Below, one piece after another: positions 13,977 to 59,131 of a stretch of 64,000 nt of DNA; position 1 is the first letter of the stretch; the number at the start of each line of letters is the position of its first letter. The notes under the pieces were generated by a model. The model searched no databases, was not told the origin of the DNA, and was given only the letters and a program-made list of their open reading frames with translations. A program made the position numbers and the translations under genes. Source of the stretch: an uncultured virus (IMG/VR IMGVR_UViG_3300048919_000076) (taxonomy: Duplodnaviria > Heunggongvirae > Uroviricota > Caudoviricetes); IMG/VR virus record IMGVR_UViG_3300048919_000076; one strand, 5' to 3'.

Positions 13977-14009
13977 GACCCTATGAGCAGAAATGCCGTA
14001 GGGTCTTTT
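13977..14009 (+). terminator. Rho-independent terminator
   Basis: GACCCTATG/CGTAGGGTC stem followed by TTTT. Confidence 0.65.
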
Positions 14010-14028
14010 ACTAACTGGAGGAATAGTC

Positions 14029-37933: not shown

Positions 37934-39271
37934 TTAAAAGCTGAATTCATTGGATTTTGTCATGCTGGGCATTGAGAACATCGGAACGTTTAACTTCTGG
38001 GCAAGTGTAATAAATGCATCAGATGAGGCGTCCACTTGGTCATCCTTTACATTACGACTACCATCAAAAGCCTCTAGTTCAAAAAAGTAAGCTTCGTTCC
38101 AAGGGCCTTCAACATATGAAACAAGACCAGCTTCGGATGCTGCTGCGAAAGGTTGGAAACGAACCACTTTAGACTTGTTAGTTGGTCGCATTCTTGCAGC
38201 AAAACCTTCTTCAAGTAGCTCTTTAATCATCATCTTACCGGCTGCAATTCCGGCTTGACCGGGCTCTTGAGGCAATATAATCTGAGTGTTATCAGGATCA
38301 GACTGAGCAGTCTTGATGATGGTTTTCATAACTTCACCATACCGAGCCATAAATGTGATTACGTCTTCGATGATGTACTGTCCTTGTTTTGTCTTTGCAA
38401 TCAAGACTCCACAAGTTTTGTCTGGGCGGGGGTTTGCATCTGATGGCACCGAGCCTGCGATATCCCATGCCCTGCATCGTGACACAATTTCTTGCTCAAA
38501 CATTTTTACCGGGATCACCCAGTCACGCTTGAAAAAACCACTCCCAGAATCGCGTACAAACCAATTCCCAAAAAGCAACCTAGCTTTTTCAGTCCCTTTG
38601 AGACCTTTAAGCCAAGAGACGTATTTTGGGTTAACTTTTTTTACGATTGGATTGTCATCTACGTTAGCACTAATAAAAGTAAACGACAGAGCGTCTTCTT
38701 CTGCTATTCCGTGGTTCTCAACAAGAGCTTCAATTGAATCACCCCAAACAAAGTCACCATCTTGGAAGGAGAAGTATCTTACAATACCGTCTCTGCTTCG
38801 ATCTGGAGTTCCATCTTCATGCAAGTAAGGCTCAACCCACTTCCTCAAGAAATGGTCTGCGTCAGGATTGCAGGTAATCTTTAGATGAGGCTTTACTTCA
38901 GGGCAAGATGGGTTACGCATACGAGACATGATGTATTGAATCATGTGTTGTGTGAACTGCGTACCTTCATCTACATAGAAAAGATTTGCCTCGGCACCTT
39001 GCCATGAGACATCACTTTGATCATTTTCAAAGTGTTTTAAATAGATTTCAGCTCCACTTTTATGGAACAAAAACTTACCGTCCTTAGCTCTCCAAGTGTA
39101 TTCATCTGGCTTATATGCTTGAGAGAAAATACGCTTACACTTAGTTAGAAGTCCACCGGGACCGGTGAGCTGTGGAGTATTCCGTCTGGTCATTACCCCA
39201 ATAAAATTAGGAATATCGGTGTACTTAAGAAAATCAATTACACCGATTTCAGATTTACCAGAACCTGCTGC
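37934..39271 (-). CDS. terL: Terminase large subunit, exon 2
   Basis: Starts at AAGSGKS (Walker A). Walker B FYVDE, TCNP, RAWDIA and KDDQVDA (nuclease). Confidence 0.93.
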   Translation of the reverse strand, partial: AAGSGKSEIGVIDFLKYTDIPNFIGVMTRRNTPQLTGPGGLLTKCKRIFSQAYKPDEYTWRAKDGKFLFHKSGAEIYLKHFENDQSDVSWQGAEANLFYVDEGTQFTQHMIQYIMSRMRNPSCPEVKPHLKITCNPDADHFLRKWVEPYLHEDGTPDRSRDGIVRYFSFQDGDFVWGDSIEALVENHGIAEEDALSFTFISANVDDNPIVKKVNPKYVSWLKGLKGTEKARLLFGNWFVRDSGSGFFKRDWVIPVKMFEQEIVSRCRAWDIAGSVPSDANPRPDKTCGVLIAKTKQGQYIIEDVITFMARYGEVMKTIIKTAQSDPDNTQIILPQEPGQAGIAAGKMMIKELLEEGFAARMRPTNKSKVVRFQPFAAASEAGLVSYVEGPWNEAYFFELEAFDGSRNVKDDQVDASSDAFITLAQKLNVPMFSMPSMTKSNEFSF

Positions 39272-39511: not shown

Positions 39512-39613
39512 ACCACCATATAGCGTCACGTCCGTCTGGGCGGCAACATACATGTGTTGCCGCTGACTCACGGGACCGGGTAAAGGAGTTTCTTTACTCT
39601 TTTGTCCAGCCAT
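39512..39613 (-). CDS. terL: Terminase large subunit, exon 1 (34 aa, not in ORF track)
   Basis: MAGQKSKETPLPGPVSQRQHMYVAAQTDVTLYGG; the spliced product is 479 aa. Confidence 0.88.
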
Positions 39614-40511
39614 AATATTTGATTTCACCTTCTGTTCTAGCTTGGCAAGCCGCTTCAAAGGAAACATTATAGGCTAGAATAATTCTCTCTTTATAGTGGG
39701 AGATTATTGCTTGCCAACTGCCATTTGCTAATTGGAAGACACCAACTCTACCTGAAGTATTATTTGTGCCCATTCTTCGATTATAAGCTTGTACTGTTAA
39801 GTCTGCCCAACGACAATTTTCCTTGAAATAACCAAGGTCAGGGTCTATTCGATCTAAAGTCATTCCTTCGGGACGTTCGCCCATGTCAGCATAGAAAGCT
39901 TCAAAAGAATCAATCCACTCCTGACAAACACCAATACCACGGTCTTGATAATAATCTTTTTCAGCATAAGACTCTAAGTAACAACGCTCTTTCATTTTCT
40001 GCCAAGAGCGATGAGTTGGAGTGCCATGCATACCGTGTTTAGTTTGCAGTTCAGAGATTTTCTCAGATTTCCAGCATCCACAGGATGAGTAATCTTGCAA
40101 GTTAGAACGTCTTGTAGAGTGTTCAGTTCCACACTCACACAGGCAATTCCAAACAGAAACTTGTTGATCATCTGAAAGCCTGTTCCACTCTTTAAACCCT
40201 AAGACTGTAAGGCGCCCAAACTTTTCACCAACAAGTTTCTCTGGAATCCATTCACCAGACTTAACCTTCTCACGGTGTTTGACGAATATCTGTCTTTTCT
40301 CACACCCGCAAGAGGTTGTATGTCCTTCCTGTTTTAAGTTAGAACCTGTTGCAACAAATTGTTGTCCACAAGCACACTGACACAACCACTTAGACTTTCT
40401 TTGCCCACTTGGTTGATAATGCCAACTATCAAAAGATAAGACTTCAACTTTACCAGTCTTAAATCCCGTATAGTCTACGAACCCTTTCGGGAATTTTATT
40501 TCTTCATTCAT
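39594..40511 (-). CDS. Free-standing HNH homing endonuclease
   Basis: Two W.C.C.CG...SCGC repeats; DMGERPEGMTLDRID....Y.KENCRWA; AP2-like tail. Confidence 0.9.
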   Translation of the reverse strand: MNEEIKFPKGFVDYTGFKTGKVEVLSFDSWHYQPSGQRKSKWLCQCACGQQFVATGSNLKQEGHTTSCGCEKRQIFVKHREKVKSGEWIPEKLVGEKFGRLTVLGFKEWNRLSDDQQVSVWNCLCECGTEHSTRRSNLQDYSSCGCWKSEKISELQTKHGMHGTPTHRSWQKMKERCYLESYAEKDYYQDRGIGVCQEWIDSFEAFYADMGERPEGMTLDRIDPDLGYFKENCRWADLTVQAYNRRMGTNNTSGRVGVFQLANGSWQAIISHYKERIILAYNVSFEAACQARTEGEIKYYGWTKE

Positions 40512-44328: not shown

Positions 44329-44742
44329 CTACTCGTCTTCGTCAGGTTCAACAAACACCAATGACAAACGTGGCTTCATTTCAGATTTGATCTGTTCCGG
44401 AGTTTGCTCTTCACTTTCTTCGTCATCATCCGAACGCTTACCTTCCATACGGATCTTAGTCAGACTAGCTTCTTCACTTGCTGCAGCACGGTCGAGCGCT
44501 ATGATGCTGGAAACGACCCACTTCGAAGAATCTAACTGCTGAGATTCTACTTTCTCGCCTTCTACACTCTTCTTGATATTCTCAAGTGCAGTTGGTTCGA
44601 TTTCACGAAGTTTTTCGGCCGTCGCACGAAGCTTTGATTTCTGGATGCGAATTTTACTGTTCGATTTCGTGTTCCTATTCGAACGTGGTCCATCAAACCT
44701 AGTATCAGGTGATGGGTTCGGATTTGTAATTTTCTTAGCCAT
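44329..44742 (-). CDS. Possible terminase small subunit
   Basis: Basic N-terminus (PDTRFDG), helical core, acidic tail; size fits, but it is not adjacent to terL. Confidence 0.4.
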   Translation of the reverse strand: MAKKITNPNPSPDTRFDGPRSNRNTKSNSKIRIQKSKLRATAEKLREIEPTALENIKKSVEGEKVESQQLDSSKWVVSSIIALDRAAASEEASLTKIRMEGKRSDDDEESEEQTPEQIKSEMKPRLSLVFVEPDEDE

Positions 44743-44771: not shown

Positions 44772-47300
44772 TTATGAAACATAAAGGTCCCCCAAAGTGC
44801 TTGTAAAAAAGTTCCAAGTAGCATTAGGGTTTGTTGATCCAATAGGTGTAGCCTTCAATTGTGAAGAGGCGTCAATAGACCATGTGAACGATGGGAATGT
44901 TCCACCAGCACCAGTTAGAAGCCCAACAGCACTGACAGTTACCAATTGAGGAGCAAGAGACGTGGCTCCCTTAGCTACCTGAAGGATGTAGTGTGCTGTC
45001 TCAGAAGCATTTGCATCGACTTGTTTAACTGTAATGAACAATACACCGGAAAAGTTGGTTGCTGTACCATCTTGTGAAACACAAGTACCAACCACGTTTC
45101 CGGTGGTTGTCAGGTTCTTGGAGATTGTCTGTGATGCAGTGTTGATCCTTTTAGATGAATAGTCCCTACGTGCTGTGCTGTTCTCGTCACGATTACCCAC
45201 ACCAGTGATAAAATCATAGGAAGTTCCCAGTGGGACGTTAACGGTGTTATACCTTGCTCTTGCTCCTTTGGAACCCTCAGAGTCAGTGGAGATAGATATC
45301 CCAGATGCCCCAGCAACGCCTGAGTGTAGATAACAGCCCTCAACAATAGCCTTACCTTTGTTTACCCTAATACCAGACCCATTGAATTGGTATGCTGTTA
45401 CGTCTTTTACAACAACATCAGGAAGAAGCTCAAGACCTCCAGTGGGGGAGATGTCACCTGTGACATCTGCCACGTTGTTCAGGAATGCACTAGTAATCAT
45501 GTAGGCATTAGCCTTACTACCTACGGCAGAGCAGTTCTCAATGCTTGCATTTTGAGCGCCGTATACCGAGAACGAATGTGATCCGGAGGTGGGGTTCCTC
45601 TCTATAATATCAACACCGCGCATGACAACATGCTCGTGGTAGCCGCCAGAGGCCGCCGCGATAATAGCCACACCTGTTGCGGAGCCGGCTGCTGGTACAT
45701 CACCTACACTGAGGGCAGACGGAAGAACTTCAATATTACTGGCGATACCACACTTGTACAAACGATGAGTACCTGTGAAAGCACCAATAGTTTTGTAAGT
45801 ACCTGTGATAGCATCTTCCTTGGTTTCAGCTACTTTAATAGTGTTAGCGTCAACTACAATAGCGAAATAGTAATTGGCCCGTCCAAAACCAGTAATCGCT
45901 GTGTTGTTCTGGCGGGAGTAAATTAAAGGGTAACCTGTAGTCAATCCGTGCGCTGTCAGGGTGAGAGCATTTGCGGAAGATGTGGTAAAATCGTATTTAC
46001 CTAAAGTGTATGGCTCTATACCAATAACTTCACGCATAGTGTCGGTAGAGAACACCTGCATACTACCATGATCTACGTTCCCATATTGAAGGCCGAAGTT
46101 ACCGCCTTTCTCACAGATAAGTTTTCCATAGCAGTTAGTGGACGGTCTGTTATATGGATAAAAAGCACTAACGCCTACGGCTCCACCCAAAGCAGTGCCA
46201 TCTGAAATTACTTTCAAATCTAGGAATAGACCATCTGTATTATCTAGCAATATACCATGTTCGGCATGAGTACCAATACGAGCTACAGTGAATCCCTTCA
46301 AGGATATGTTCTTAAGTCTTGGTCCAGTGAATGGGCTTGCAAAGAACAGCTTACCAGAAGATGGAAACTTACAATAGATTACAGGTGAATAAGTGTCATC
46401 CCCTAATATATCCATTGAAGACCACGCATGTATTGTATCAGTGATCATGTACTTCTTGTTTCTTTTAAGCTTGATTGGTAAGCCCGAAGCTTCAGCTGCA
46501 AGGAAGGCTGGTGTACAATCCGTACCAATCTGGGTATCTGGGTCATAGTCACCAACTGCACCAAACAATTCAATAGGCACACGAGAGTCACCAAGTATGG
46601 AGTAAATAGTGGCTGGTGTGCCATCAAGATCAATACCGATCAAGGCTGCGCCTTTTAAATGATCGGAGTTGTTGGATAGATCTGCGATATCAGCTTTAGT
46701 AGAAAGAAGCCCTTCAGTATACACAGCACTAGCTTCAGCGGCATTAGCCGAATCCAAAGAATCCTGTGCAGATGTGGAAGCTTCAGTAGCCTTAGTGGTA
46801 GATACACCCGCAAAAGTACTAGCAGATGATGCACTATTAGCCGAGTTAGTTGCAGAGGTTTGACTTGCTACCGCTGACGTTTGAGAGGCTATTGCACTAT
46901 TGGCACTGGCGGTAGCACTGTTAGTAGAATTCGTAGCTGATATAGCAGCAGCATTCTTACTAGCCAATGCAGCAGCAGCGTTAGCTGCAACTTGAGCTAC
47001 TAAAGGATCACTCCCAGCAGTTTGCCCAACCATCAACAGAGCGTTAATAGTTGTCTCTGTTGTATCATCTGTAATTTCAATATTACCAATGCTTGTAAAT
47101 GCATGGTAATCATTTACGAATACACTTACTTTATACCAACCATTAGGAACATCAATCTCGTATTCCCCGTCAATGTCTGTCTTAAAATCTTTAGTGACAA
47201 ACATCAAGACATCGGGAGATGTATTATTAGCTGTAATCCGTACAAGTGAGTTTGAATATGGAACACCTGTAGGGGTTAGAAGAATACCTGAAAGAATCAT
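44772..47300 (-). CDS. Tail spike/fibre with putative beta-helix depolymerase domain
   Basis: Stf-like N-terminus (LSGIL..P.G.P), Ala/Ser stalk, FGAVGD...GTD.T.AF, repeating beta-strand pattern. Confidence 0.8.
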   Translation of the reverse strand: MILSGILLTPTGVPYSNSLVRITANNTSPDVLMFVTKDFKTDIDGEYEIDVPNGWYKVSVFVNDYHAFTSIGNIEITDDTTETTINALLMVGQTAGSDPLVAQVAANAAAALASKNAAAISATNSTNSATASANSAIASQTSAVASQTSATNSANSASSASTFAGVSTTKATEASTSAQDSLDSANAAEASAVYTEGLLSTKADIADLSNNSDHLKGAALIGIDLDGTPATIYSILGDSRVPIELFGAVGDYDPDTQIGTDCTPAFLAAEASGLPIKLKRNKKYMITDTIHAWSSMDILGDDTYSPVIYCKFPSSGKLFFASPFTGPRLKNISLKGFTVARIGTHAEHGILLDNTDGLFLDLKVISDGTALGGAVGVSAFYPYNRPSTNCYGKLICEKGGNFGLQYGNVDHGSMQVFSTDTMREVIGIEPYTLGKYDFTTSSANALTLTAHGLTTGYPLIYSRQNNTAITGFGRANYYFAIVVDANTIKVAETKEDAITGTYKTIGAFTGTHRLYKCGIASNIEVLPSALSVGDVPAAGSATGVAIIAAASGGYHEHVVMRGVDIIERNPTSGSHSFSVYGAQNASIENCSAVGSKANAYMITSAFLNNVADVTGDISPTGGLELLPDVVVKDVTAYQFNGSGIRVNKGKAIVEGCYLHSGVAGASGISISTDSEGSKGARARYNTVNVPLGTSYDFITGVGNRDENSTARRDYSSKRINTASQTISKNLTTTGNVVGTCVSQDGTATNFSGVLFITVKQVDANASETAHYILQVAKGATSLAPQLVTVSAVGLLTGAGGTFPSFTWSIDASSQLKATPIGSTNPNATWNFFTSTLGDLYVS

Positions 47301-47414
47301 ATTGTCCCTACTGAATGATTGTGATAAATCACATATTGTTTTAATTGAATTTTCTAAATCATTCTGGCAAGACTACTTGCAATAATATCAATGGATAACA
47401 AAATGATTAAGAAA

Positions 47415-47521
47415 ATATTCTCTTAAGCGAGGAGAGAGACACTTAAGAGAATATGAAAGACAAGCTGATAGGAGAGGATCAGTTATCTTTAAGATCCGGC
47501 ATAGAGGAGGAGAGACGCCGG
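47415..47521. ncRNA. Candidate small RNA with three hairpins sharing AGGAGAG(+)/CUCUCCU(-) loops
   Basis: Stems at 47415-47454, 47456-47490 and 47496-47521, each with the same loop motif. Confidence 0.6.
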
Positions 47522-47567
47522 GAGGAACACACCTTTCTAGAATTTGACCTTCGTGGTGTGGTGAAAC

Positions 47568-47651
47568 TGGTGCGGAACGTAAGACTCGAACTTACACGTC
47601 TTTCGACAGCAGTTTCTAAGACTGCCATGGCTACCATTACATCAGTTCCGC
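47568..47651 (-). tRNA. tRNA-Leu(TAG)
   Basis: GCGGAAC/GTTCCGC acceptor stem, encoded CCA, anticodon arm GCAGT-CTTAGAA-ACTGC, long variable arm, TTCGA. Confidence 0.95.
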
Positions 47652-47655
47652 AAAT

Positions 47656-47731
47656 TGGTCTAAGCGGCAGGGATCGAACCTGCGAGTACTCGGTTCCAAA
47701 CCGAGACGATTACCACTTTCGCTACGCTTAG
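47656..47731 (-). tRNA. tRNA-Pro(TGG)
   Basis: CTAAGCG/CGCTTAG acceptor stem, encoded CCA, anticodon arm CTCGG-TTTGGAA-CCGAG, GTTCGA. Confidence 0.95.
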
Positions 47732-47789
47732 ATAAAACTTAAAATAGATGCTCTGCTCACCTTCCCAACCCACAGACACTTCGGGAAGC

Positions 47790-47838
47790 TACGCGACCTA
47801 ATAAGGTTTCGACTTATTACAAAGTCTCATCAGGCGTA
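47790..47838 (-). ncRNA. Type I hammerhead ribozyme
   Basis: UACGC CUGAUGA GACUU-uguaau-AAGUC GAAA CCU-uauu-AGG UC^GCGUA; full core, all three stems and a GUC triplet. Confidence 0.9.
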
Positions 47839-47964
47839 TTAAATAAGTGTGTCTGACTGGATACCTACTTGCAGAGCGGTGGTATCGTACGCTCGTAAAT
47901 TAATGCTGGTGTTGTTTATCTCGTCTTTATCACGAGGTGGCAGAATCCAGCAACTGCGCATTCT

Positions 47965-48225
47965 TTAACAAGTGATCTGAACAGGACTTTGAAAGTCTGT
48001 CAACTTCCACTGTTTGAAGTAGTCTGAAGGATACACCCGAGTAGGTATGTCACCAACCCCTACGAATACTTCTTTGTTACAATCAGGTGTACGCACTGGC
48101 GTGACTTTATCAAACACAAGCTTCAAATGATCTTTAATAATCAACCATTGTTTTTCAGAGATGGTGTCTGTGTCGGATAGTTCTATGAAGCCTTGGAGCC
48201 AATATGTGAAGCTTTCAGAATTCAT
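47965..48225 (-). CDS. Hypothetical protein
   Basis: GGAG RBS; F.YWLQGF.E...QW..IKDHL.LVF.KVTP. Confidence 0.8.
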   Translation of the reverse strand: MNSESFTYWLQGFIELSDTDTISEKQWLIIKDHLKLVFDKVTPVRTPDCNKEVFVGVGDIPTRVYPSDYFKQWKLTDFQSPVQITC

Positions 48226-48261
48226 GGTTTTCTCCGCCCAGTTCTCGACTGGATATACTTG

Positions 48262-48290
48262 ATTATTGCACGTTTTAGGTTAGTTGTCAA
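48262..48290 (-). promoter_or_regulatory. Sigma70-like promoter facing the ORF-hammerhead-tRNA unit
   Basis: TTGACA-17 nt-AATAAT with TG extension. Confidence 0.65.
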
Positions 48291-48296
48291 CAACTA

Positions 48297-48473
48297 TTAT
48301 TCGTATTTAGGTAAAATAGTCTTATAAACACTGAAATCAGGGTCTGTTAGTGATTCAAACTGATATTCCATCCGAAACACTTCAATACTATCTTCCAAAT
48401 ATTCTACTTCAATATCACATACACAATAATTATTAATACGCCCACATTGTGAGCAAAAGCAAATCTCGCCCAT
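48297..48473 (-). CDS. 58-aa Cys-containing protein (not in ORF track)
   Basis: GGAG RBS; MGEICFCSQCGR...; TTGACA upstream near 48539. Confidence 0.6.
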   Translation of the reverse strand: MGEICFCSQCGRINNYCVCDIEVEYLEDSIEVFRMEYQFESLTDPDFSVYKTILPKYE

Positions 48474-48558
48474 AATGTGGACTCCGTTAGTTGTTTCTCA
48501 AGTTCATGTAGTAAAACACAATTGAGCTCGTTCTGTCAAGGTTTTAGGAAAATAAATA

Positions 48559-48846
48559 TTAAAAATGTTCTCCGTAGTTATCATTCACCAACAAATCCTC
48601 TACAGAATACCAATTCTTACATTCCAACCTACTGCCACGAGCTTCGTTAATTTTCTTAGTTGTAGGCCAAGAATTATATTTGTAGAAATACTGAATCCAT
48701 ACACAAGATTCAGTAAGCTTGATTTTGTTGATGCTCAGTTTTAAATCATAAGGGATTAAGTCTGTAAATTCCTCTTCAGTCTTGAAAGATTTTAGAAGGT
48801 CTATGCGTCCAGAGTATCCGGGATAGCTTTTCCACCAATCACTCAT
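48559..48846 (-). CDS. Hypothetical protein
   Basis: ATGA coupling to the upstream gene. Confidence 0.7.
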   Translation of the reverse strand: MSDWWKSYPGYSGRIDLLKSFKTEEEFTDLIPYDLKLSINKIKLTESCVWIQYFYKYNSWPTTKKINEARGSRLECKNWYSVEDLLVNDNYGEHF

Positions 48847-50201
48847 TTCTTATCCACCTTACAGAATGTAGTATCACCCAATACTGTTTCCCAAGCTGAG
48901 AACATAGCCTCTCTCAAGTCATCTTCAACAGAAGCTTTAACTAGGCAACTGTCGTGATAAGCCAATACTGTGTGTCCCTTAGCCCCCATTGCCCCAACAA
49001 TACGCATCATGATCTTACTATCAATGTTTTGAAGAACAATACCAGCATCAGAGAAGAAACGATCTTTAATAAAATCATTATGTGTTTGCACAGCCTCAAG
49101 AACAGCACAATAATCTGTCTCACCAATCAAAGCGTAGAAATCCTGATCTTCAACAGCCTTGGAACGATCTTGTTTAACCTTGTTACCAAGTGTCCATGCT
49201 GCACTATTCTTGTCGTTAGAGTTCATACCAATCAAGATAGCTAACTTAGCTAATTGACGGACAGGGTTGTGTTTCTTACCCGTCTTCTTTTCCCACTCAT
49301 CTTTCAATCGACCATCAACCTTCAGGAATGACAAGTCTGCATCATATGGAGAAAAGTCTTTACCCATCACGTCATAAATATTAAATCCGTTTGTTTTGTA
49401 CATCAACTGATAGCAGATAGATGGGTGGATTGCAGAGTAGTCCAGTTCCACACATGACTCGCCATCAATCATTAGAGATGATGCCCGCACATGCTGAGGG
49501 AGTAATTGCACACCACCACCTAATGTGTACAGCCGACCTCCACTATCCATATCCCCACTAAAGATGCGACGATAGGACACATCAGCAATAGGAACGCCAT
49601 CAAATGTAATCGAACTGCCTTGCAGAGTGTCATTCATATCTCGTACCTCATTTTTAATTTCTTTAAAACCTTTATGTCCACGAGTAGGCATTTGTTCTTT
49701 AGTCTCCCGATCACGAATGATAGCTAAATCATTATCTTCTAATTCTTTCCAAAGATTGTAGGACGTATTAACATTCTCCCACATCTCTTTTGTACGCTTC
49801 CTGAAGATCATACAAGAAGCAATTGCTTCATCAGGGACAAGCTTTCCTTTCTCCATCTTCCAAGACTTAACGTATCCTTTATAAAGGTCAATATACCCTT
49901 TCTCCTCCAAGAAATCAACAAGAGATTTAACCTTTCTGTAGTTGATACCTTGTTTTGTCTTGCTATATGCATTCCTATCCAAGCTAAAGACAAATCCATT
50001 AGCTTTCTTCTTGATTGCACGAGCAGAGTTAGACACCCACCATCTAACTGCATCTTCCCATTTGTATTTAGTATGCTCCATCACATCATCTACTATCTTC
50101 TTGTAGTATTTAGATTCATGGTAATAGATATAGCTTCTTACACACTGTAGGTTAACAGCATAGACATCATACTCTGTCATATTACTTAATTCATAGATCA
50201 A
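48843..50201 (-). CDS. Pol I-fold polymerase-like protein (single-subunit RNA polymerase-like motifs)
   Basis: GGRLY; ELDYSAIHP (motif A); RQLAK (motif B); LQNIDS; YHDS (motif C). Confidence 0.6.
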   Translation of the reverse strand: MIYELSNMTEYDVYAVNLQCVRSYIYYHESKYYKKIVDDVMEHTKYKWEDAVRWWVSNSARAIKKKANGFVFSLDRNAYSKTKQGINYRKVKSLVDFLEEKGYIDLYKGYVKSWKMEKGKLVPDEAIASCMIFRKRTKEMWENVNTSYNLWKELEDNDLAIIRDRETKEQMPTRGHKGFKEIKNEVRDMNDTLQGSSITFDGVPIADVSYRRIFSGDMDSGGRLYTLGGGVQLLPQHVRASSLMIDGESCVELDYSAIHPSICYQLMYKTNGFNIYDVMGKDFSPYDADLSFLKVDGRLKDEWEKKTGKKHNPVRQLAKLAILIGMNSNDKNSAAWTLGNKVKQDRSKAVEDQDFYALIGETDYCAVLEAVQTHNDFIKDRFFSDAGIVLQNIDSKIMMRIVGAMGAKGHTVLAYHDSCLVKASVEDDLREAMFSAWETVLGDTTFCKVDKK

Positions 50202-50860: not shown

Positions 50861-51319
50861 GTGCGTTATTCTAAAGGACGCTGGGTAGCCTCTTACCGAG
50901 ACACTTGGTCCCTCGACACAACCCTATCCCCAATCATCTACGCCGGATTATCCAAATTCCACGATGTCCTAGAACAAAAGAACCGCGAAGGGAAATGTCT
51001 AGGCATCCCAAACGAATACATGAAAAATGAATCCGAATGGGTGACAGATTCTGATATACAAGATTGGCTAGACGACATCAAGAAGATGATGTATGCTTTC
51101 GAGAACAAAGAGCCTGATATGGGAGCGTATGATTTCTCTTTGGAAATGGTGCCTGTTCCGGGAGAGGTAGCTAAGGAAGGCTGCTCAGTCCCATACACAA
51201 TTGAGTGTGATAATTTGGAAGAGAAAGCTAGGTATTATGCTGATTGTGATGAGCATGAGAGGTTGGTGCAAGAGGGGTTGAATCTCTTTAGTTTGAGATA
51301 TTCCAGTTTGTGGTGGTAA
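50861..51319 (+). CDS. Hypothetical protein
   Basis: DTWSLD.TL..II..GL..F and GL.LF...Y..LWW. Confidence 0.8.
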   Translation: MRYSKGRWVASYRDTWSLDTTLSPIIYAGLSKFHDVLEQKNREGKCLGIPNEYMKNESEWVTDSDIQDWLDDIKKMMYAFENKEPDMGAYDFSLEMVPVPGEVAKEGCSVPYTIECDNLEEKARYYADCDEHERLVQEGLNLFSLRYSSLWW

Positions 51320-51337
51320 ATTAATAGGAGAAATGTT

Positions 51338-53742
51338 ATGGAAATGAAATCATATACGAATGTTGTAAGCCTATTCAGGCTAAGAGAAGACTCAGTGTTT
51401 AACAGTCTGAATGATGCCGTTGAAGTCTTTGAGGATGACTCATCAGTTGATGTTATCTTGAACACAGACTACCATCGTGTTGATGTTATATTTAAAGAAG
51501 ACGTGACTGTAGCTGACTGTGAATGTATTTACTTAGGTATTAATCAAGTACGTCCGATTGGTGTATTGATGATGACAAACCGAAATGACCTGTTCGCTAA
51601 GTATGAACAGAATTATATTAAAGTCAGTAGGCTTCAAAATAAGATGTTCAAACAATCAGCCAAGTTTAACAAAGCTAAACGTAAACTTGAGAAGGCATTG
51701 GAGAAGCTTGCATGATCTACATCCTATACTACCTAATCTGTGCTGTATCGAGCTTTTACCTTACTAAAAACTACGTTGAGTCCAACCTTAGACGTGTAGG
51801 CATCCAAGACGCTAGCATCGCTACCGCTATGAGAAATGCCGCTAAGAAAGACGAAACAATTGATCCAATGCATGATTGTCCAGACCATGTAGCTTCAGCT
51901 TTGTTTTGGACGATAATTTTGGTGTACAATCTGTTGTGTTGGCCATTCTGTCTGATGACATTGGTGTATTGGCAGATTAATAAACAAGACTTTTCAGATT
52001 ATAGGGGGTAATATATGATTACTAAAACTGACGACAAGAAACACAAATACCAAAGCTGGGAAACTCTCCTGACACTTAGCTATGGAGGTGCTATGGATTG
52101 TATTACATTTGATTTAGCTGCTTGGGGCTCTACTGAACAAGAGTCAATGGATAATTTCAAGGTAGCTTGGAAGATTCTAAAGGATAAAGTGGATAACTTG
52201 GTGGCTAAAGAATGACAATAAAACTATCCCTATTCATGCTTGATCCTGTAACTGCTCATGCAAAGTACATGAAAGAAGTAGCTGAACTGAACGAAAAGAT
52301 TGAAAAGAAAGATAGTTCTCACAAGGAACTTAAGCTACAATACAAACTTCTGAAAGAACGAATGAAGAGGCGTACAGGTGAACTTACCGTTGTGTCTAAC
52401 AAGCTCTCTGAAGAGAGAAAACTAAATCAGGTATGGGAGAATTGAGATGAAACGAACAATCATGTACCGCTACAGTTCTTGGACAGAAGGTTGTGGATGT
52501 TGCTCAAATAGTGAATCACTCTATGATGTCTATGAAGATGGTGTGTTGGTATCAGAAGCAAATTGGTGTGGGCTTGCACAGGATGAGGCAGACTTACGGG
52601 GTATTCTTAAGCATCTAGAACCTTTTGATATTGATCCTGATAGTTGGTGGTTTTGATGAAAGTATGCTGCGGTAACGGAAAGCCTTATGACACTCTAACA
52701 GACTTCGAACGTCTCGGTGGTTGCGGGAACGATCACTGTGTAGGCCCAATTAGTGTAGAAGATTATGATCTACTCTTGACAGGGCTTGGAACATTCGATA
52801 TAAGAGATTGCACAAGCTCAGATGAGTTGTGTAAGTTGATTAAACCAACAGGAGAGCAAGATGAAATTTAGTAAAGAGGCTTGGTGGGAATATGTCAGGG
52901 GTACTGAACTGAAAGATATGGAAGATGGTGATATCCTAATTGCACTGCAACAAGCGTTCTATTCTGGATATATCTGTAAAGAGTCTGAAATTAAAATTAT
53001 TGATTCTCAACTCGTTGCACTCAAGGAGATGTTTAAGTGAAGCCCCACGAGATTGACAAGATTAAAAGTTTAGATCCTACAGGCTGCAACGGCACTGTGC
53101 AAAGTGTTCTGATGAATCCTAATATCAACCAAGCACATTATGCAGAAGTGTTGTATTATTTGTTGAGTAAGGTGCTTGAAGAGAAGGGGTATCTTGAGCG
53201 TGCTAGTAATGCCATGACTAGGGTGTTGCAAGCTAATGGGTTGGTGGATGAATTGAATAAATGTCTTGAATTGGAGGAGAAACTATGAACTACACAGCAG
53301 AAAATGTTAAAGTATTCTTTGGAGATATTGAAGTTACAGGTTATGCACTTGCCGACCCAATCTATGCAAATCGTGAACGACTGTGGTACAAGGATATTGA
53401 AGGAAAACCTTTCACTGTACTTGCAACTTGTGAAGATTACACTGTAGTAGAGGTTCCTTTCAATGAATTAGGTTATGAAAAGCATATTAAGCCGATGAAG
53501 CCAACTGTTAAGAGTCCATTTAAGTGTGTGGTGGAGAAATGATTTCTCATCTAGACTATTTAATGAGTCTTCCACAAGTACATAGGGAAATTTATGGTTA
53601 CGAAGAAGAAAACAAACCAAATGATTATTGTGTCTGGACAGATATTGGTTATAGTAAGAGTCTAATGGCTTGGGTTGAAACTGATGAGCACTTTAGAGAT
53701 AGAATTAAAGAAATAAAGCTTGACTGTAAAATAGAAACATGA
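51338..53742 (+). other. Run of about ten small, tightly coupled hypothetical ORFs
   Basis: Starts at 51338, 51712 (membrane), 52015, 52212, 52447, ~52656, 52861 (59 aa, not in track), 53037, 53285 and ~53539. Confidence 0.7.
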
Positions 53743-53818
53743 GACATTGGTGGTGTAGGGATTTGTAGGCAGGAAAAGCGGGATAATTATTAAATAACCA
53801 GTAGAAGGAAACAAGTGC

Positions 53819-54643
53819 ATGGGAAGTCGCGAAAGGGCGTTTGTAGTACAAGTTGACGGTCAGGATATCGCCGTTCCCCGTAAACGTGTTCGTAAGGATA
53901 AGGTTGGTAAACCTGCTGTAAACCATAAGTATGATGATGAAAAAGAGTTTAATTCGTTGCACTTTAAGCCTATTGGAGAGGCACAAACGCTTGGGGCACA
54001 GTATCTGCAAGAAGGCCGTAAAATAGTTGCACTACAAGGCCCAGCCGGTGGTGGCAAGTCAATTCTAGCTGCATGGCACGCTGCAAACCTGTTGAAAGCT
54101 AAATCTATCCATAAATTGTTCTTGGTTCGACCTTATGAGTCTTGCGGGCGTACAATCGGGGCGGTTCCCGGCACGGAAGGAGAAAAACTCTCCGTTATCT
54201 TCACCAGCATCTTGGAGCATCTGACCAAGTTCCTTGGTAAAACGCAATTGTCTTACATGCTTGAGAAGAAAGTAATCGAATTCAAAAGCGTCGAATGGAT
54301 GCGCGGTTATTCCTTTGAGGACGGCGTTTTTGTCTTGTGTGAAGAGGTGCAGGGATTCGATACTGACCTTATGCAAATGCTGACAACTCGTATTGGTGAT
54401 GGCGCGCAACTTTGTATGACGGGTGATTGGCGTCAAAAAGACATCCGCAAGGAAACTGGGCTTAAGTACTTGAGTGAAGTTGTAGAGGCTGCAAATAACA
54501 CACCACCAGAATTTCTTGATGACGAAGATATTCAGGAAATCAAGAATAACATTGGGTTTGTGAATTTTACATTTGAGGACAGTGGTCGTCGAAGTAAGTT
54601 GACTAAAGCACTTGTGAAATTGTTTTACTACGAGAAGGGGTAG
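53819..54643 (+). CDS. phoH: PhoH-like ATPase
   Basis: GPAGGGKS, G.VPG, MRG.SF, EEVQ, TRIG, GD..Q.D, RS.L. Confidence 0.92.
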   Translation: MGSRERAFVVQVDGQDIAVPRKRVRKDKVGKPAVNHKYDDEKEFNSLHFKPIGEAQTLGAQYLQEGRKIVALQGPAGGGKSILAAWHAANLLKAKSIHKLFLVRPYESCGRTIGAVPGTEGEKLSVIFTSILEHLTKFLGKTQLSYMLEKKVIEFKSVEWMRGYSFEDGVFVLCEEVQGFDTDLMQMLTTRIGDGAQLCMTGDWRQKDIRKETGLKYLSEVVEAANNTPPEFLDDEDIQEIKNNIGFVNFTFEDSGRRSKLTKALVKLFYYEKG

Positions 54644-54645
54644 TT

Positions 54646-55464
54646 ATGGAAGTCGATTCAACAAGATGGGAGATTATAAAAGAATGGAAAGAGGGTAGAC
54701 GCCACTACCTAGAAGTTAAGTGTAATATTTGTAATACACACTTTGATAGATCACGAAAAGAGCAAATCTTTGGAAAGGTTCTTAGGCAGTGTGAATGCGA
54801 TAAAACTGTGCGTGGAAAGCCATTTGAAATAGGTGAGCGGATTGGTAAACTGATAGTTCTGGAAAGAGATAACAGTATTACGGATAATAAACATGTTTGG
54901 TGGAAGGTAAAGTGTGATTGTGGAGAAGTTAAATCCTTACAAGGTAGTCAGTTGAGGAACGGTACAACTTCAACATGCGGATGTTTGCTTTCTGACAAAC
55001 GTGGAGGTAAAAGAGAAAAGCATGGCAGGACTAAAACAAAAGAGTATAAAATTTGGACTAGTATGTGTGGTAGAGTAACAAGACCAGACGAAAGTACCCG
55101 TAAATGGTATTTTGACAAGGGTATTGGTGTTTCTTCTGAGTGGAGAGCTGGTTTTACACACTTCTATGAGGATATGGGAGACTGTCCAGAGGGGTACTCT
55201 TTAGACAGAATTGACCCATCAGGTGATTACTGTAAAGAAAACTGCCGCTGGGCTTCTCTTGAACTTCAATCTATTAACAAAGGATTGTTTTGCAATAACA
55301 CAAGTGGTAAGACAGGTGTTTCCTTGAATCAACACGGAAAATATATGGCTTACATTTACAACAAGGGCGAGAGAATCCATCTAGGGAGTCATGCAACTTA
55401 TGAATCAGCAGTCAAAGCACGCCTTGAAGCCGAAGAAAAATATTGGGGAGACATTAATGAGTGA
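54646..55464 (+). CDS. HNH homing endonuclease with AP2-like domain
   Basis: W..KCDCG...CGC; DMG.CPEGYSLDRID...Y.KENCRWA; paralogous to 39594-40511. Confidence 0.88.
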   Translation: MEVDSTRWEIIKEWKEGRRHYLEVKCNICNTHFDRSRKEQIFGKVLRQCECDKTVRGKPFEIGERIGKLIVLERDNSITDNKHVWWKVKCDCGEVKSLQGSQLRNGTTSTCGCLLSDKRGGKREKHGRTKTKEYKIWTSMCGRVTRPDESTRKWYFDKGIGVSSEWRAGFTHFYEDMGDCPEGYSLDRIDPSGDYCKENCRWASLELQSINKGLFCNNTSGKTGVSLNQHGKYMAYIYNKGERIHLGSHATYESAVKARLEAEEKYWGDINE

Positions 55465-56227
55465 AGATAATATCGTTCCATTCTTTCAACCAAACAAAAC
55501 GTTCACAACAGAATTTCGTGGTGTTCGGTATGATTACTACTTGACTGGTGAAATTGGCAAGGCTGAGGATTATGTAGACTTGTGTAATATTCTGCGTAGT
55601 GCATCGGCACAAGATGAGGTGGTGATAAGAATCCGGAGTGGCGGCGGGTCTGTACACACAGGCAATATGATCATCAACGCTATTAGTGAATCTGAGGCTA
55701 ATGTCGTTGGGTTCATTGAAAGTGACTGTGGTAGTATGGCTACGTTCATCTTCTTGGCCTGTCATACTTGGGGCGTTTCAGACACTGCTGAGTTTTTCTG
55801 TCACACTTGTAGCTATGGTTCTTGGGGTAAGGAACATGAAAATTTTGCACAGGCTGAGTTTATTCGTAAACAAGCACACAAACAGATGCGTGCTCGATAT
55901 GAAAACTTCCTCACAACTCAAGAAATCGAAATGGTCATTTCTGGGACCGACATCTATCTAGATGCTGATGAAATTATGCAGCGACTTGAAGGGTATTCGG
56001 AAGCTCGAAATAATAAGCCTTGCGACTGTGGCTCAGAAGATTGTCCTCAAAACCAACGCCTCGCAGCTCTCCAAGAGGAAGAAGACTTCGACGACATGCC
56101 AACACTGGAAGACATGATTTCTTCCGCTGTAGCTTCCGGTATTGAGCAATATGAAAAGAAACGACTTGCCGCTGATAAAAAGGTCACGAAGGTAAAACCA
56201 GCAAAAGTAATCGAAAAATCTGAATAA
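55457..56227 (+). CDS. ClpP-like serine protease
   Basis: I.S.GGSV..G..I, C.SMA..IFLA, F.H, D.YLDA.E. Confidence 0.8.
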   Translation: MSEDNIVPFFQPNKTFTTEFRGVRYDYYLTGEIGKAEDYVDLCNILRSASAQDEVVIRIRSGGGSVHTGNMIINAISESEANVVGFIESDCGSMATFIFLACHTWGVSDTAEFFCHTCSYGSWGKEHENFAQAEFIRKQAHKQMRARYENFLTTQEIEMVISGTDIYLDADEIMQRLEGYSEARNNKPCDCGSEDCPQNQRLAALQEEEDFDDMPTLEDMISSAVASGIEQYEKKRLAADKKVTKVKPAKVIEKSE

Positions 56228-56232
56228 AGAGC

Positions 56233-56269
56233 TTGCATTAAATACGTGGGAGGGGTAAAATTCTCCCAC
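56233..56269 (+). promoter_or_regulatory. Sigma70-like promoter overlapped by an inverted repeat
   Basis: TTGCAT-17 nt-TAAAAT; GTGGGAG...CTCCCAC flanks the -10. Confidence 0.55.
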
Positions 56270-56294
56270 AAACTTAAACCAAAGGAGAATTAAA

Positions 56295-58040: not shown

Positions 58041-58453
58041 AGTACGATAAACTCTACATGGACTTAGCTTTACGAGTTGCACAGGAGAGTAAATGCCCAC
58101 GTAAAGCTGTAGGTTGTGTCATTGTACCAGAATCAGGAATGTTGGCAGTTGGTTTCAATGGTCACGCATCAGGTGGTCCCAATATATGGGATTATTCAGA
58201 AGACGGAAATCCAGAAGTAGTACATGCAGAATTGAATAGTTTAGGGAAAATGCTAGAACAAGGGGTTAGTGCTAAAGGATCCACGGTCTATGTAAGCTTG
58301 AGTTGTTGCCTTGATTGTGCTAAGCTTCTTGTACGTGCCAAGGTAAGTCGAGTTGTTTATTTGGAGAGTTACAGAAAGACAGATGGGCTGGATTATTTGA
58401 GAAAATACAATATTTGTGTAGAACAATTTAAAGGAGAACAAAATGAAAACTAA
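58037..58453 (+). CDS. dCMP deaminase
   Basis: S.C.R..VG, G.NG, HAE.N, CxxC. Confidence 0.92.
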   Translation: MKYDKLYMDLALRVAQESKCPRKAVGCVIVPESGMLAVGFNGHASGGPNIWDYSEDGNPEVVHAELNSLGKMLEQGVSAKGSTVYVSLSCCLDCAKLLVRAKVSRVVYLESYRKTDGLDYLRKYNICVEQFKGEQNEN

Positions 58454-59050: not shown

Positions 59051-59061
59051 TAGAAATTTAT

Positions 59062-59096
59062 AAGCTCTGAGGCTCTTGTCTCGGGGCTTTTCTTTT
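59062..59096 (+). terminator. Rho-independent terminator
   Basis: AAGCTCTGAGGC/GTCTCGGGGCTT stem followed by TTCTTTT. Confidence 0.75.
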
Positions 59097-59131
59097 GTTA
59101 AAATTATCTTATAAATTAACTAGGAGGCTAC

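What the first reader, a model, noticed from the sequence alone, without database searches (positions are those of the whole stretch)
47415..47521. Three hairpins displaying the same CUCUCCU/AGGAGAG loop: anti-SD sRNA or Rsm sponge
Seen: three consecutive stems with unrelated sequences whose loops all contain AGGAGAG on the plus strand (CUCUCCU on the minus strand), directly 3' of tRNA-Leu. One U.G pair and the tRNA direction favour the minus strand, giving anti-Shine-Dalgarno loops like bacterial CU-rich multi-hairpin sRNAs that could block RBSs. On the plus strand they would resemble RsmY/RsmZ/CsrB GGA sponges. Either reading implies a phage-encoded translational regulator.
Basis: partly seen in the sequence, partly recalled or inferred. 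Interest (0 to 1): 0.75.

Follow-up and report, generated by a model that had tools for sequence, protein, structure and literature searches.

The report
Phage RNA with UCUCC hairpin loops
Just after its tRNA genes, this uncultured phage and a dozen relatives encode a conserved, uncatalogued folded RNA whose open hairpin loops always show the word UCUCC, the mirror image of a ribosome-binding site, so it probably damps translation, though nothing has been tested at the bench.

Summary
Three hairpins with unrelated stems lie at 47415-47521, and each loop carries CUCUCCU on the minus strand.

They are the core of a larger noncoding RNA of about 220 nt (47567-47350, minus strand). It has a 5' block GUUUCACC that abuts the CCA of tRNA-Leu, then hairpin H0, the three CU-loop hairpins H1-H3, a U-rich tract and a fifth hairpin H4.

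- **Conservation:** the RNA is present in 12 other IMG/VR phage contigs, plus one borderline case. On the alignment fitted to my model, all 44 pairs of H0-H3 show changes on both sides.
- **Strand:** G·U outnumbers A·C 34 to 4, which fixes the minus strand. The plus-strand Rsm/CsrA-sponge reading is not supported.
- **Loop word:** it is UCUCC (34 of 36 loops), not the canonical CCUCC (8 of 36).
- **Rfam:** only a sub-threshold, full-length hit to ar14, the three-hairpin anti-SD "cuckoo" sRNA family (24 bits against 58.8). The design is the same, but this RNA is not a member.

My best reading (about 0.5) is a tRNA-linked, processed, trans-acting RNA that covers GGAG(A) ribosome-binding sites. 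Transcription, ends and targets are untested. The loops fit start regions no better than shuffled CU loops do (25 of 200 shuffles did as well).

This scan has already noted the same RNA family on other DNA, in four earlier reports.

The parts
47350..47567 (-). Whole conserved structured RNA (5' block, H0, H1-H3, U-rich tract, H4), about 218 nt
   Evidence: Fold. Model R1 hits in 11 of 11 sources, plus L028, L029 and L027. Pair counts.
47560..47567 (-). Conserved 5' boundary block GUUUCACC, directly after the encoded CCA of tRNA-Leu
   Evidence: Alignment A1. Upstream sequences: the block directly abuts a tRNA 3' end in the window (Leu), L008 (Thr) and L010 (Pro).
47528..47560 (-). Hairpin H0: covarying outer stem, with a conserved A-rich/UUCU loop region (AAGAAnnAAAUUCUA in most relatives)
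   Evidence: fold. helices 1-2: 9 of 9 pairs changed on both sides. Alignment A1.
47496..47521 (-). Hairpin H1, 7-bp G+C-rich stem, loop CUCUCCUCCUCU (47503-47514)
   Evidence: helix 3: 7 of 7 pairs changed on both sides.
47456..47490 (-). Hairpin H2, stem starting AAAGA, loop CCUCUCCU (47470-47477)
   Evidence: helix 4: 13 of 13 pairs changed on both sides.
47415..47454 (-). Hairpin H3, 15-bp stem, loop UCUCUCUCCU (47430-47439); candidate intrinsic terminator stem
   Evidence: helix 5: 15 of 15 pairs changed on both sides. The homologous hairpin in L009 is flagged terminator-like.
47409..47414 (-). Conserved U-rich tract (UUUCUU) after H3, which is also the 5' foot of H4
   Evidence: Tails listed. 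Alignment A1. In one search the three pairs that never vary (cols 233/290, 235/288, 236/287) lie in this lower stem.
47350..47414 (-). Hairpin H4 (arms 47402-47414 and 47351-47363), enclosing a small conserved hairpin GCAAG/CUUGC at 47367-47380
   Evidence: MAFFT alignment A1, not fitted to any model: 87.7% of cells paired versus 29-58% when slid; 12 of 19 pairs changed on both sides.
47568..47651 (-). tRNA-Leu (UAG), context: its 3' processing would create the RNA's 5' end
   Evidence: ARAGORN; Rfam tRNA 50.5 bits.
47656..47731 (-). tRNA-Pro (UGG), context
   Evidence: ARAGORN; Rfam tRNA 49.6 bits.
47790..47838 (-). Hammerhead-like ribozyme core upstream of the tRNAs, a possible further processing device of the same transcript
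   Evidence: Rfam Hammerhead_HH9 23.4 bits (gathering 52), E = 0.002-0.006. The alignment shows CUGAUGAG, CGAAAC and GUC.
48262..48290 (-). Sigma-70-type promoter-like site (TTGACA, 17 nt, TG-n-AATAAT), candidate start of the ORF86-ribozyme-tRNA-RNA unit
   Evidence: 11 of 12 matches, with TG. An equally strong site lies on the same strand 300-520 nt upstream of the RNA in L009 and L011.

Best explanation
The three hairpins are the core of a conserved noncoding RNA of about 220 nt, read from the minus strand.

Proposed life cycle:
1. It is co-transcribed with the small ORF, the hammerhead-like element and the two tRNAs from a sigma-70-type promoter about 700 nt upstream.
2. It is cut free at the tRNA 3' end. 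The conserved GUUUCACC block starts right after the CCA.
3. Most of it ends at hairpin 3, whose conserved U-rich tail makes it terminator-like. Read-through transcripts add hairpin 4.

Its two to five hairpin loops expose the word UCUCC, which is complementary to GGAGA. By analogy with the three-hairpin anti-SD sRNAs of Alphaproteobacteria, the loops would pair redundantly with GGAG(A) ribosome-binding sites and keep 30S subunits off those mRNAs. Candidate targets are the phage's own plus-strand, non-structural genes, where GGAGA-type sites are commonest, and/or host mRNAs.

Shown here: the structure, the strand, the conservation, the sequence specificity of the loop word, and the position next to tRNAs.
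Inferred: transcription, processing, termination, trans action and targets.
For: - **Structure:** z = -6.8. Unconstrained MFE folds recover CU-loop hairpins in 10 of the 11 regions folded, including the window; in the long L013 region they did not appear, though its shorter fold shows two.
- **Conservation:** model R1 finds one full-length match in 11 of 11 sources at E <= 0.001. It also matches L028 (56.1 bits) and L029 (27.4 bits), with a borderline match in L027 (14.5 bits, E = 0.043) at the syntenic place. L027 has its own fold z of -6.3, with loops UUUUCUCCUU and GUCCUCCUC.
- **Covariation:** 96.3% of 409 cells pair versus about 41% when slid, and 44 of 44 pairs change on both sides (this alignment was fitted to the model). 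For H4, on a plain MAFFT alignment, 87.7% pair versus 29-58%.
- **Strand:** G·U 34 versus A·C 4. The z-score is lower on the RNA strand in 13 of 13 members, and the MFE is lower in 10 of 13.
- **Motif specificity:** UCUCC is in 34 of 36 loops (letter shuffles: mean 7.4, maximum 15 in 2000). CUCC is in 36 of 36.
- **Same design as a tested class:** Rfam ar14 matches over its full length, 1-123 (24 bits, E = 0.02-0.05). The ar14/NfeR1 loops silence mRNAs by covering translation start regions, redundantly (PMC10746234, passages read). Cuckoo RNAs are 2-4 hairpins with one loop motif and variable stems (PMC4615179, passages read).
- **Processing:** the 5' block directly abuts a tRNA 3' end in 3 of 13 members, each time a different tRNA (Leu, Thr, Pro), which leaves no room for a promoter of its own.
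- **Promoter and terminator:** strong sigma-70-like sites lie upstream in 3 of 3 loci examined. H3 of L009 is flagged terminator-like.
- **Candidate targets:** GGAGA lies upstream of 29 of 70 plus-strand starts versus 8 of 47 minus-strand starts (Fisher p = 0.008). Predicted loop-to-start-region duplexes average -9.33 versus -7.14 kcal/mol (p = 9e-5), and the 12 best are all plus-strand genes.
Against: - **No transcript evidence.** The only RNA run found covers just the tRNA-Leu stretch.
- **No optimisation for start regions.** The real loops pair with the phage's start regions no better than letter-shuffled CU loops: 25 of 200 shuffles did as well. SD pairing is therefore not shown to be what selection acts on.
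- **The plus/minus difference may be compositional.** It may only reflect the purine skew of the plus-strand blocks, and my gene calls are crude.
- **The loop word is not the canonical anti-SD.** CCUCC occurs in 8 of 36 loops, which is not enriched.
- **Weak terminator evidence.** The window's H3 was not flagged as a terminator, nor was L011's. The U tract is short and interrupted.
- **H4 argues for read-through.** H4 is conserved as RNA structure, so at least some transcripts must read through H3. The RNA always sits just upstream of a gene, as a leader would.
- **No experimental handle.** Cultured distant relatives lack the RNA.
Confidence: 0.5

Rival explanations
1. It is a cis-acting intergenic element. 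H3 plus the U tract insulates the packaging and late genes downstream from the early, sigma-70-driven tRNA unit. In read-through or late transcripts, H0-H4 form a structured 5' leader that sets the stability, processing (for example by RNase III or RNase E) or translation of the next gene. The CU loops would then serve that control, not trans targets.
For: - The RNA always lies 35-75 nt upstream of a same-strand gene. In 11 of the 13 related loci listed, that gene is the same conserved basic protein of about 130-147 aa, which sits ahead of the terminase.
- H4 is conserved as structure beyond the U tract.
- H3 of L009 is terminator-like.
- Strong host-type promoters lie upstream.
Against: - The downstream gene is not constant. 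In the window it is an 842-aa tail-fibre-like gene, and other genes follow in L010 and L027.
- The ribosome-binding sites of the downstream genes are AGGAA/AGGUAA-type (sequences) and fit UCUCC poorly, so the loops would not sequester them.
- A terminator or stabiliser needs neither three hairpins nor one invariant loop word.
Confidence: 0.2
2. It is a protein-binding RNA (decoy, sponge or scaffold). The repeated UCUCC loops would be read by a pyrimidine-specific RNA-binding protein rather than by mRNAs. Candidates are the termination factor Rho (whose rut sites are C/U-rich), ribosomal protein S1, a KH-domain protein, or a phage protein.
For: - A strictly conserved 5-nt word is presented 2-5 times in open loops on variable stems. 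This is the layout of protein sponges.
- The RNA is C-rich and G-poor, with C/G of 1.6-2.45 in 13 of 13 members.
- Shuffled CU loops pair with start regions about as well as the real ones, so something other than SD pairing may fix the word.
- The conserved A-rich loop of H0 could be a second protein site.
- A search listing shows that rut sites are discussed as CU-rich (10.1101/2024.02.02.578684; listing only).
Against: - No candidate partner was identified.
- The conserved neighbouring 137-aa protein has no family match and only a mediocre model with no significant structural match.
- Rho sites are usually unstructured and need no fixed word.
Confidence: 0.15
3. It is a plus-strand RNA with AGGAGAG loops that sponges CsrA/RsmA, like CsrB, RsmY or RsmZ.
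For: - The GGA sits in hairpin loops when the plus strand is folded (z = -3.1).
- There are three or more copies, as in Csr/Rsm sponges (layout recalled, not tested).
Against: - G·U 34 versus A·C 4 favours the other strand.
- The z-score is weaker on this strand in 13 of 13 members.
- No Csr/Rsm family appears among Rfam matches up to E = 10.
- The only plus-strand promoter-like site in 47000-48900 (48447-48476) lies downstream of the element and reads away from it.
- Every gene from 14 to 51 kb and both tRNAs are on the minus strand.
Confidence: 0.03
4. It is a DNA-level element. One option is repeated CTCTCC boxes as binding sites for a small terminase (a pac/cos-like site upstream of a putative small-terminase gene). 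Another is single-stranded DNA hairpins used in replication.
For: - Three evenly spaced copies of one word lie just upstream of a small basic protein that precedes the large terminase in most relatives.
- Weak, non-significant structural rows to small terminases (3txq, 6ejq, 9oox; E >= 4).
Against: - Double-stranded protein sites do not need covarying flanking stems. All 44 of 44 pairs covary, with G·U tolerated on one strand only.
- In the window the element is separated from that gene by a 2.5-kb insertion.
- The 5' block abuts tRNA ends.
Confidence: 0.03

Closest known systems
Cuckoo RNA family / alpha-r14 (Rfam ar14, RF02344): NfeR1 of Sinorhizobium meliloti, CcsR1-4 (RSs0680) of Rhodobacter
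   Same: - Two to four adjacent hairpins, each loop carrying the same pyrimidine anti-SD-like word.
- Stems that differ freely through compensatory changes, and a modular number of hairpins (PMC4615179, passages read).
- The loops act redundantly on translation start regions (PMC10746234, passages read).
- The ar14 model aligns over its full length to 47413-47527 (-).
- Some cuckoo loci also sit beside a tRNA-Leu gene (PMC4615179).
   Different: - The loop word is UCUCC, not CCUCCUCCC.
- The score of 24 bits is far below the gathering score of 58.8.
- It is carried by uncultured phages, not alphaproteobacterial replicons.
- It has extra conserved domains (5' block, H0, H4).
- It is probably released from a tRNA transcript rather than made from its own stress promoter.
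C/U-rich-loop sRNAs of Gram-positive and other bacteria (LhrC of Listeria, RNAIII/RsaE UCCC loops of Staphylococcus, sX13 of Xanthomonas, RepG of Helicobacter)
   Same: Several exposed C/U-rich loops or stretches that pair with ribosome-binding sites. These are named as analogues in PMC4615179 (passage read). For LhrC I saw only the title and abstract in the listing (PMC4132741).
   Different: - No sequence or model similarity: none of these families appears among Rfam matches up to E = 10.
- The motif, architecture and carrier differ.
tRNA-linked processed small RNAs: ncRNA2 of Pseudomonas phage PAK_P3; the small stable RNAs of the T4 tRNA cluster and the 3'ETS of leuZ in E. coli (the last two recalled, no call)
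   Same: - It lies directly 3' of a phage tRNA, ahead of the terminase region.
- PAK_P3 ncRNA2 has no start site of its own, is made by processing and is abundant late in infection (PMC10914365, passages read; annotation).
- The portal of PAK_P1/P3-like phages is about 46-47% identical to the window's.
   Different: - PAK_P3 ncRNA2 folds like a tRNA-like element with a T-arm and has no CU-loop hairpins.
- Model R1 finds nothing in that locus.
- Its function is equally unknown.

Membership tests
Cuckoo / ar14 (RF02344) | Score at or above Rfam's gathering threshold (58.8 bits) | tested here: not met
   24.0 bits, E = 0.021-0.051, model positions 1-123 of 123, at 47413-47527 (-). No ar14 hit at E <= 1 in 12 relatives' loci searched in bulk.
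Cuckoo / ar14 (RF02344) | 2-4 adjacent hairpins of 24-50 nt, helices of at least 6 bp, linkers of at most 10 nt (PMC4615179) | tested here: met
   Hairpins of 26, 35 and 40 nt; stems of 7, 13 and 15 pairs; linkers of 5 and 1 nt. The H2 loop of 8 nt is just under the stated loop range of 9-27.
Cuckoo / ar14 (RF02344) | Every loop carries the motif CCUCCUCCC | tested here: not met
   No loop of the window holds it. Across the family, even CCUCC is in only 8 of 36 loops, while UCUCC is in 34 of 36.
Cuckoo / ar14 (RF02344) | Stems vary through compensatory changes while the loop word stays | tested here: met
   44 of 44 pairs changed on both sides; loop-word statistics.
Cuckoo / ar14 (RF02344) | Resident of alphaproteobacterial chromosomes or plasmids | tested here: not met
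   The window and all relatives are phage contigs. The host is unknown. No relative of the portal was found in 185,579 species' genomes.
CsrB / RsmY / RsmZ-type CsrA sponges | GGA motifs in loops of the transcribed strand | tested here: not met
   GGA is in loops only on the plus strand. Strand tests favour the minus strand.
CsrB / RsmY / RsmZ-type CsrA sponges | Match to a Csr/Rsm covariance model | tested here: not met
   None among matches up to E = 10 on either strand.
CsrB / RsmY / RsmZ-type CsrA sponges | Binds CsrA/RsmA | not testable with these tools
   Needs a gel-shift assay.
Intrinsic (Rho-independent) terminator, for H3 | Stable stem-loop followed at once by a U-rich tract | tested here: inconclusive
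The tail UUUCUU(A/U)A is conserved in the family.
tRNA-linked processed sRNA | The 5' end coincides with a tRNA 3' processing site, with no promoter of its own | tested here: inconclusive
   The conserved 5' block abuts the tRNA CCA in 3 of 13 members. Ten members have no tRNA directly there. Real RNA ends are unknown.

The most novel reading that the evidence does not exclude
The RNA is a phage-made translational switch. It is released from the early tRNA transcript and accumulates during infection. Through its redundant UCUCC loops it progressively covers the GGAGA-type ribosome-binding sites that mark the phage's own non-structural (plus-strand) genes, and perhaps host mRNAs too. The structural genes, which mostly use other sites, are left alone.

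This would be an RNA-only counterpart of what phage T4 achieves with the RegB nuclease cutting GGAG in early messages (T4 RegB is recalled, no call). It would be the first global anti-SD regulator described in a lytic phage.
Probability: 0.15. Interest if true: 0.85.

Novelty: new variant of a known kind. Interest (0 to 1): 0.6.

Why it matters
Very few trans-acting regulatory RNAs are known from lytic phages, and none that I could find uses the multi-hairpin anti-SD design. I searched, reading listings plus passages of three papers. The evidence that this is a real RNA is unusually strong: every base pair covaries and one strand is clearly favoured. It is absent from Rfam 15 and from 50,697 deposited phage genomes by sequence.

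If it works as proposed, it would give phages a cheap, mutation-robust way to re-programme translation. It would also show that the cuckoo-type design arose independently in a virus. Finally, it links phage tRNA arrays to the making of regulatory RNAs.

The weak points are that the phages are uncultured and that no transcript or target has been shown.

Tried and rejected
- **RNA-seq evidence.** One search gave a single metatranscriptome run holding 5% of the words. Laid on the stretch, its two contigs cover only 47561-47660 (tRNA-Leu and a few flanking bases) and then run into other sequence. This says nothing about the RNA's expression.
- **A better covariance model from the 11-sequence alignment.** I kept the single-sequence model R1, which is less sensitive. 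It missed G003 in the whole-record search but found it in the locus.
- **Cultured relatives.** There was no match in the whole record of Pseudomonas phage vB_PsaM_M1, nor in the regions fetched from vB_PseuGesM_254 and PAK_P3. Only those regions were searched, not their whole genomes. The gaps between tRNAs in vB_PseuGesM_254 hold tRNA-like folds, not CU hairpins.
- **blastn of the RNA against 50,697 phage records.** Only two 25-nt hits at E = 0.8.
- **Broad scan of IMG/VR for three CTCTCC words 20-50 nt apart.** Of the 120 strand-readings with at least 3 words that I folded, 4 had 3 or more words in predicted loops, and all 4 are tandem repeats or low-complexity sequence. The scan is therefore uninformative about how widespread the design is.
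- **Host search.** There is no relative of the portal protein in the prokaryote genome collection. The window's own assembly is not held.
- **Specific targets.** The best predicted loop-to-start-region duplexes exist, but shuffled loops do as well in 25 of 200 trials. I therefore name no target.
- **The tail-fibre gene as the constant downstream partner.** Rejected: no homologue of it lies in any relative's locus.
- **The conserved 137-aa neighbour as a known family.** No PHROG or Pfam match. The model has pLDDT 67.7, and no PDB match reaches E <= 0.001.
- **A hammerhead as the general 5' processing device.** Only the window, out of 14 loci, has the core within 1.5 kb upstream.

Full report
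**Setting.** The window is a tailed phage with a contractile tail. PHROG matches include terminase, portal, sheath, tape measure, tail fibres and ribonucleotide reductase. Genes from about 14 to 51 kb lie on the minus strand and the two flanking blocks on the plus strand. ARAGORN finds tRNA-Pro (47656-47731) and tRNA-Leu(UAG) (47568-47651), both on the minus strand. The flagged stretch, 47415-47521, lies directly 3' of tRNA-Leu.

**Observation.** Folded as minus-strand RNA, 47400-47567 gives three adjacent hairpins at exactly the flagged coordinates. Their loops are CUCUCCUCCUCU, CCUCUCCU and UCUCUCUCCU, and a fourth hairpin (H0) lies upstream. MFE is -46.3 kcal/mol, z = -6.8, and 0 of 200 shuffles fold as well. 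The plus strand gives z = -3.1. CTCTCCT occurs 13 times in the window on both strands (shuffles: mean 7.8), and three of these fall within 85 nt here. A descriptor scan of my own found no other three-hairpin CU-loop cluster in the window.

**Relatives.**
- The nearest held record (G001) is 100% identical here and so is uninformative.
- Using the 452-aa protein encoded 1.3 kb upstream as an anchor, I fetched 12 IMG/VR loci (77-100% identity). With an alignment as query I fetched 13, adding two new contigs.
- Unconstrained MFE folds show two or three hairpins with CU-rich loops at the syntenic place, with stems of unrelated sequence. This held in 10 of the 11 regions folded. The long L013 region did not show them, but its shorter fold shows two.
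- A covariance model built from the window's sequence and its MFE structure alone (R1) finds one full-length match in each of 11 of 11 sources, at 24.7-219 bits.
- At E <= 1 two further weak hits appeared: L007 6471-6583 at 14.6 bits and window 10557-10689 at 13.8 bits. I left these out of the alignment.
- R1 also finds the RNA at the other end of the contig whose locus L002 was cut short (G002/L028, 56.1 bits) and in G003 (L029, 27.4 bits).
- It gives a borderline hit (14.5 bits, E = 0.043) at the syntenic place in the most distant relative, G004/L027, whose neighbouring protein is 55% identical. That region folds with z = -6.3 and shows loops UUUUCUCCUU and GUCCUCCUC.
- The family therefore holds the window, 12 other contigs and one borderline case.

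**Structure and strand.**
- On the alignment fitted to R1 (A4, 11 sequences), 96.3% of 409 cells form standard pairs against about 41% when partners are slid. All 44 pairs have changes on both sides, and 0 of 500 shuffles reach the observed values. This alignment leans towards the structure, but the separate MFE folds agree with it.
- G·U pairs outnumber A·C 34 to 4.
- Across 13 members the z-score is lower on this strand in 13 of 13 and the MFE is lower in 10 of 13 (rough mononucleotide shuffles, n = 25).
- The RNA is therefore read from the window's minus strand, the strand of the tRNAs and of all neighbouring genes.

**Full extent.** A plain MAFFT alignment (A1) shows conserved sequence anchors: GUUUCACC at the 5' end, an A-rich/UUCU word in the H0 loop, UUAAAGA before H2, and UUUCUUAA after H3.
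- Beyond H3 there is a fifth hairpin, H4 (47414-47350), with a small inner hairpin. On A1, which was not fitted to any model, 87.7% of cells pair against 29-58% when slid, and 12 of 19 pairs change on both sides.
- Three pairs at the foot of H4 never vary. That foot is the U-rich tract following H3, so the tract seems constrained in sequence as well as in pairing.
- The whole element is 47567-47350, about 218 nt.

**Loop word.** In 36 CU-loop hairpins of 13 members, UCUCC occurs in 34 (letter shuffles: mean 7.4, maximum 15 of 2000) and CUCC in 36. The canonical anti-SD core CCUCC occurs in only 8, which is not enriched. The conserved word is therefore sequence-specific, not mere pyrimidine richness. 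Its complement is GGAGA.

**Context and biogenesis.**
- The 5' block directly follows a tRNA's CCA in the window (Leu), L008 (Thr) and L010 (Pro). L006 has a sub-threshold tRNA-like match ending 8 nt upstream. In L007, L012 and L013 a tRNA lies 80-300 nt upstream. Six members have none by ARAGORN. The RNA module is constant while the tRNA array in front of it varies.
- Where a tRNA abuts, there is no room for a promoter, so co-transcription and release by tRNA 3' processing follow from the sequence. The junction reads A-G-UUU in several members, which resembles the RNase E preference as I recall it (no call).
- A strong sigma-70-like site (11 of 12, with TG) lies at 48290-48262. Equally strong sites lie 300-520 nt upstream in L009 and L011. 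That is 3 of 3 loci examined.
- In the window a hammerhead-like core (Rfam HH9, 23.4 bits, below threshold) lies between that promoter and the tRNAs. It is absent from the other 13 loci.
- H3 of L009 is flagged terminator-like. H3 of the window and of L011 is not.
- Downstream, 11 of the 13 related loci listed carry the same basic protein of about 130-147 aa first. In the window an 842-aa tail-fibre-like gene is inserted before it, and the homologue lies at 44332-44715. L010 and L027 have other insertions.

**What it resembles.**
- Rfam 15 gives only a sub-threshold but full-length match to ar14 (RF02344): 24 bits against a gathering score of 58.8, E = 0.02-0.05.
- ar14, or "cuckoo", RNAs are 2-4 adjacent hairpins whose loops all carry CCUCCUCCC on freely varying stems. 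They are restricted to Alphaproteobacteria (PMC4615179, passages read).
- NfeR1's three loops redundantly silence mRNAs by covering start regions (PMC10746234, passages read).
- The design is the same here. Membership fails on score, motif and carrier.

**Tests of the anti-SD idea.**
- With crude gene calls (117 ORFs), GGAGA lies within 22 nt upstream of 29 of 70 plus-strand starts against 8 of 47 minus-strand starts (p = 0.008). For GGAGAG the counts are 8 of 70 against 0 of 47.
- Predicted duplexes between the three loops and start regions average -9.33 (plus) against -7.14 kcal/mol (minus), p = 9e-5. The 12 best are all plus-strand genes.
- Against this, letter-shuffled loops do as well as the real ones in 25 of 200 trials, and the plus-strand blocks are purine-skewed throughout.
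- The RNA could plausibly cover the ribosome-binding sites of the non-structural genes, but the data do not show that this is what selection maintains.
- The ribosome-binding sites of the genes just downstream are AGGAA-like and fit the loops poorly. This argues against simple cis sequestration.

**What could not be shown.** No transcript evidence exists. One metatranscriptome run holds only the tRNA-Leu stretch. Cultured distant relatives lack the RNA. These are Pseudomonas phages vB_PsaM_M1, vB_PseuGesM_254 and PAK_P3, with portal identity of about 46-48% for the latter two groups. The RNA has no blastn match in 50,697 phage records. PAK_P3 does make an abundant, processed ncRNA directly 3' of a tRNA ahead of its terminase (PMC10914365, passages read), but that RNA is tRNA-like and has no CU hairpins. 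The host is unknown.

**Earlier notes of this scan.** I consulted these after my own analysis. They describe the same RNA family on other DNA: a 230-245-nt RNA in uncultured 85-92-kb soil phages, UCUCC loops, cuckoo as the closest known, and specific targets no better than chance. In one case the RNA follows a hammerhead instead of a tRNA. My results agree with these notes and were reached independently.

**Verdict.** This is a real, conserved, uncatalogued phage noncoding RNA on the minus strand. Most likely (about 0.5) it is a tRNA-linked, processed, trans-acting RNA that covers GGAG(A) ribosome-binding sites. A cis leader or terminator role (0.2) and a protein-sponge role (0.15) remain open. 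The plus-strand Csr/Rsm sponge and a DNA-level site are unlikely (0.03 each).

Noticed in passing
window 47790-47838 (-): Hammerhead-like ribozyme core (CUGAUGAG ... CGAAAC ... GUC) between a small ORF and tRNA-Pro. Rfam HH9 gives 23.4 bits, below the gathering score of 52. The surrounding ~110-120 nt (window 47788-47909) is 72-74% identical to unannotated or hypothetical stretches of Klebsiella phage 05F01, Escherichia phage vB_EcoM_PD205 and Klebsiella phage vB_KoxiM_BaqKoxi. None of the 13 related loci has the core within 1.5 kb upstream of the RNA.
   Followed up: partly
window 37934-39193 (-) and 39594-40511 (-): The large terminase ORF matches only positions 200-619 of its 642-position PHROG profile. 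An HNH endonuclease gene lies just upstream, so the terminase gene may be split or invaded by a homing element.
   Followed up: no
L009 9552-9817 and 11010-11254 (+): Two group I introns above Rfam's threshold (88.3 and 75.7 bits) in a relative's locus, downstream of the RNA.
   Followed up: no
window 44329-44742 (-); L005 7381-7794 and homologues: A conserved basic protein of about 130-147 aa lies directly downstream of the RNA in 11 of 13 related loci. It has no PHROG or Pfam match. The AlphaFold model is helical with pLDDT 67.7, and no PDB match reaches E <= 0.001. Small terminases appear only among non-significant rows. It may be a small terminase or an RNA partner.
   Followed up: partly
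window 1-14200 and 51000-64000 (+): Strong strand asymmetry of GGAG-type words in the plus-strand gene blocks: GGAG sense versus antisense is 53 to 13 and 69 to 9, against 85 to 111 in the minus-strand block. GC skew is +0.18 to +0.24.
   Followed up: partly
L130 (an IMG/VR locus): An unrelated viral contig shows two hairpins with CU-rich loops, each followed by a T-run, in an AT-rich intergenic stretch. It may be an independent CU-loop small RNA.
   Followed up: no
window 47561-47660: A metatranscriptome contig matches 100 nt exactly (tRNA-Leu, the first 7 nt of the RNA's 5' block and 9 nt upstream). It then continues into a different tRNA-like sequence. This suggests a relative with another tRNA array, and the contig ends 7 nt into the RNA.
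   Followed up: no
L032 10248-10793 and 12040-12328 (Pseudomonas phage vB_PseuGesM_254): The unannotated gaps in this cultured phage's tRNA array hold T-arm-like sequences (GGTTCGAAT-type). These may be unannotated or decayed tRNAs.
   Followed up: no
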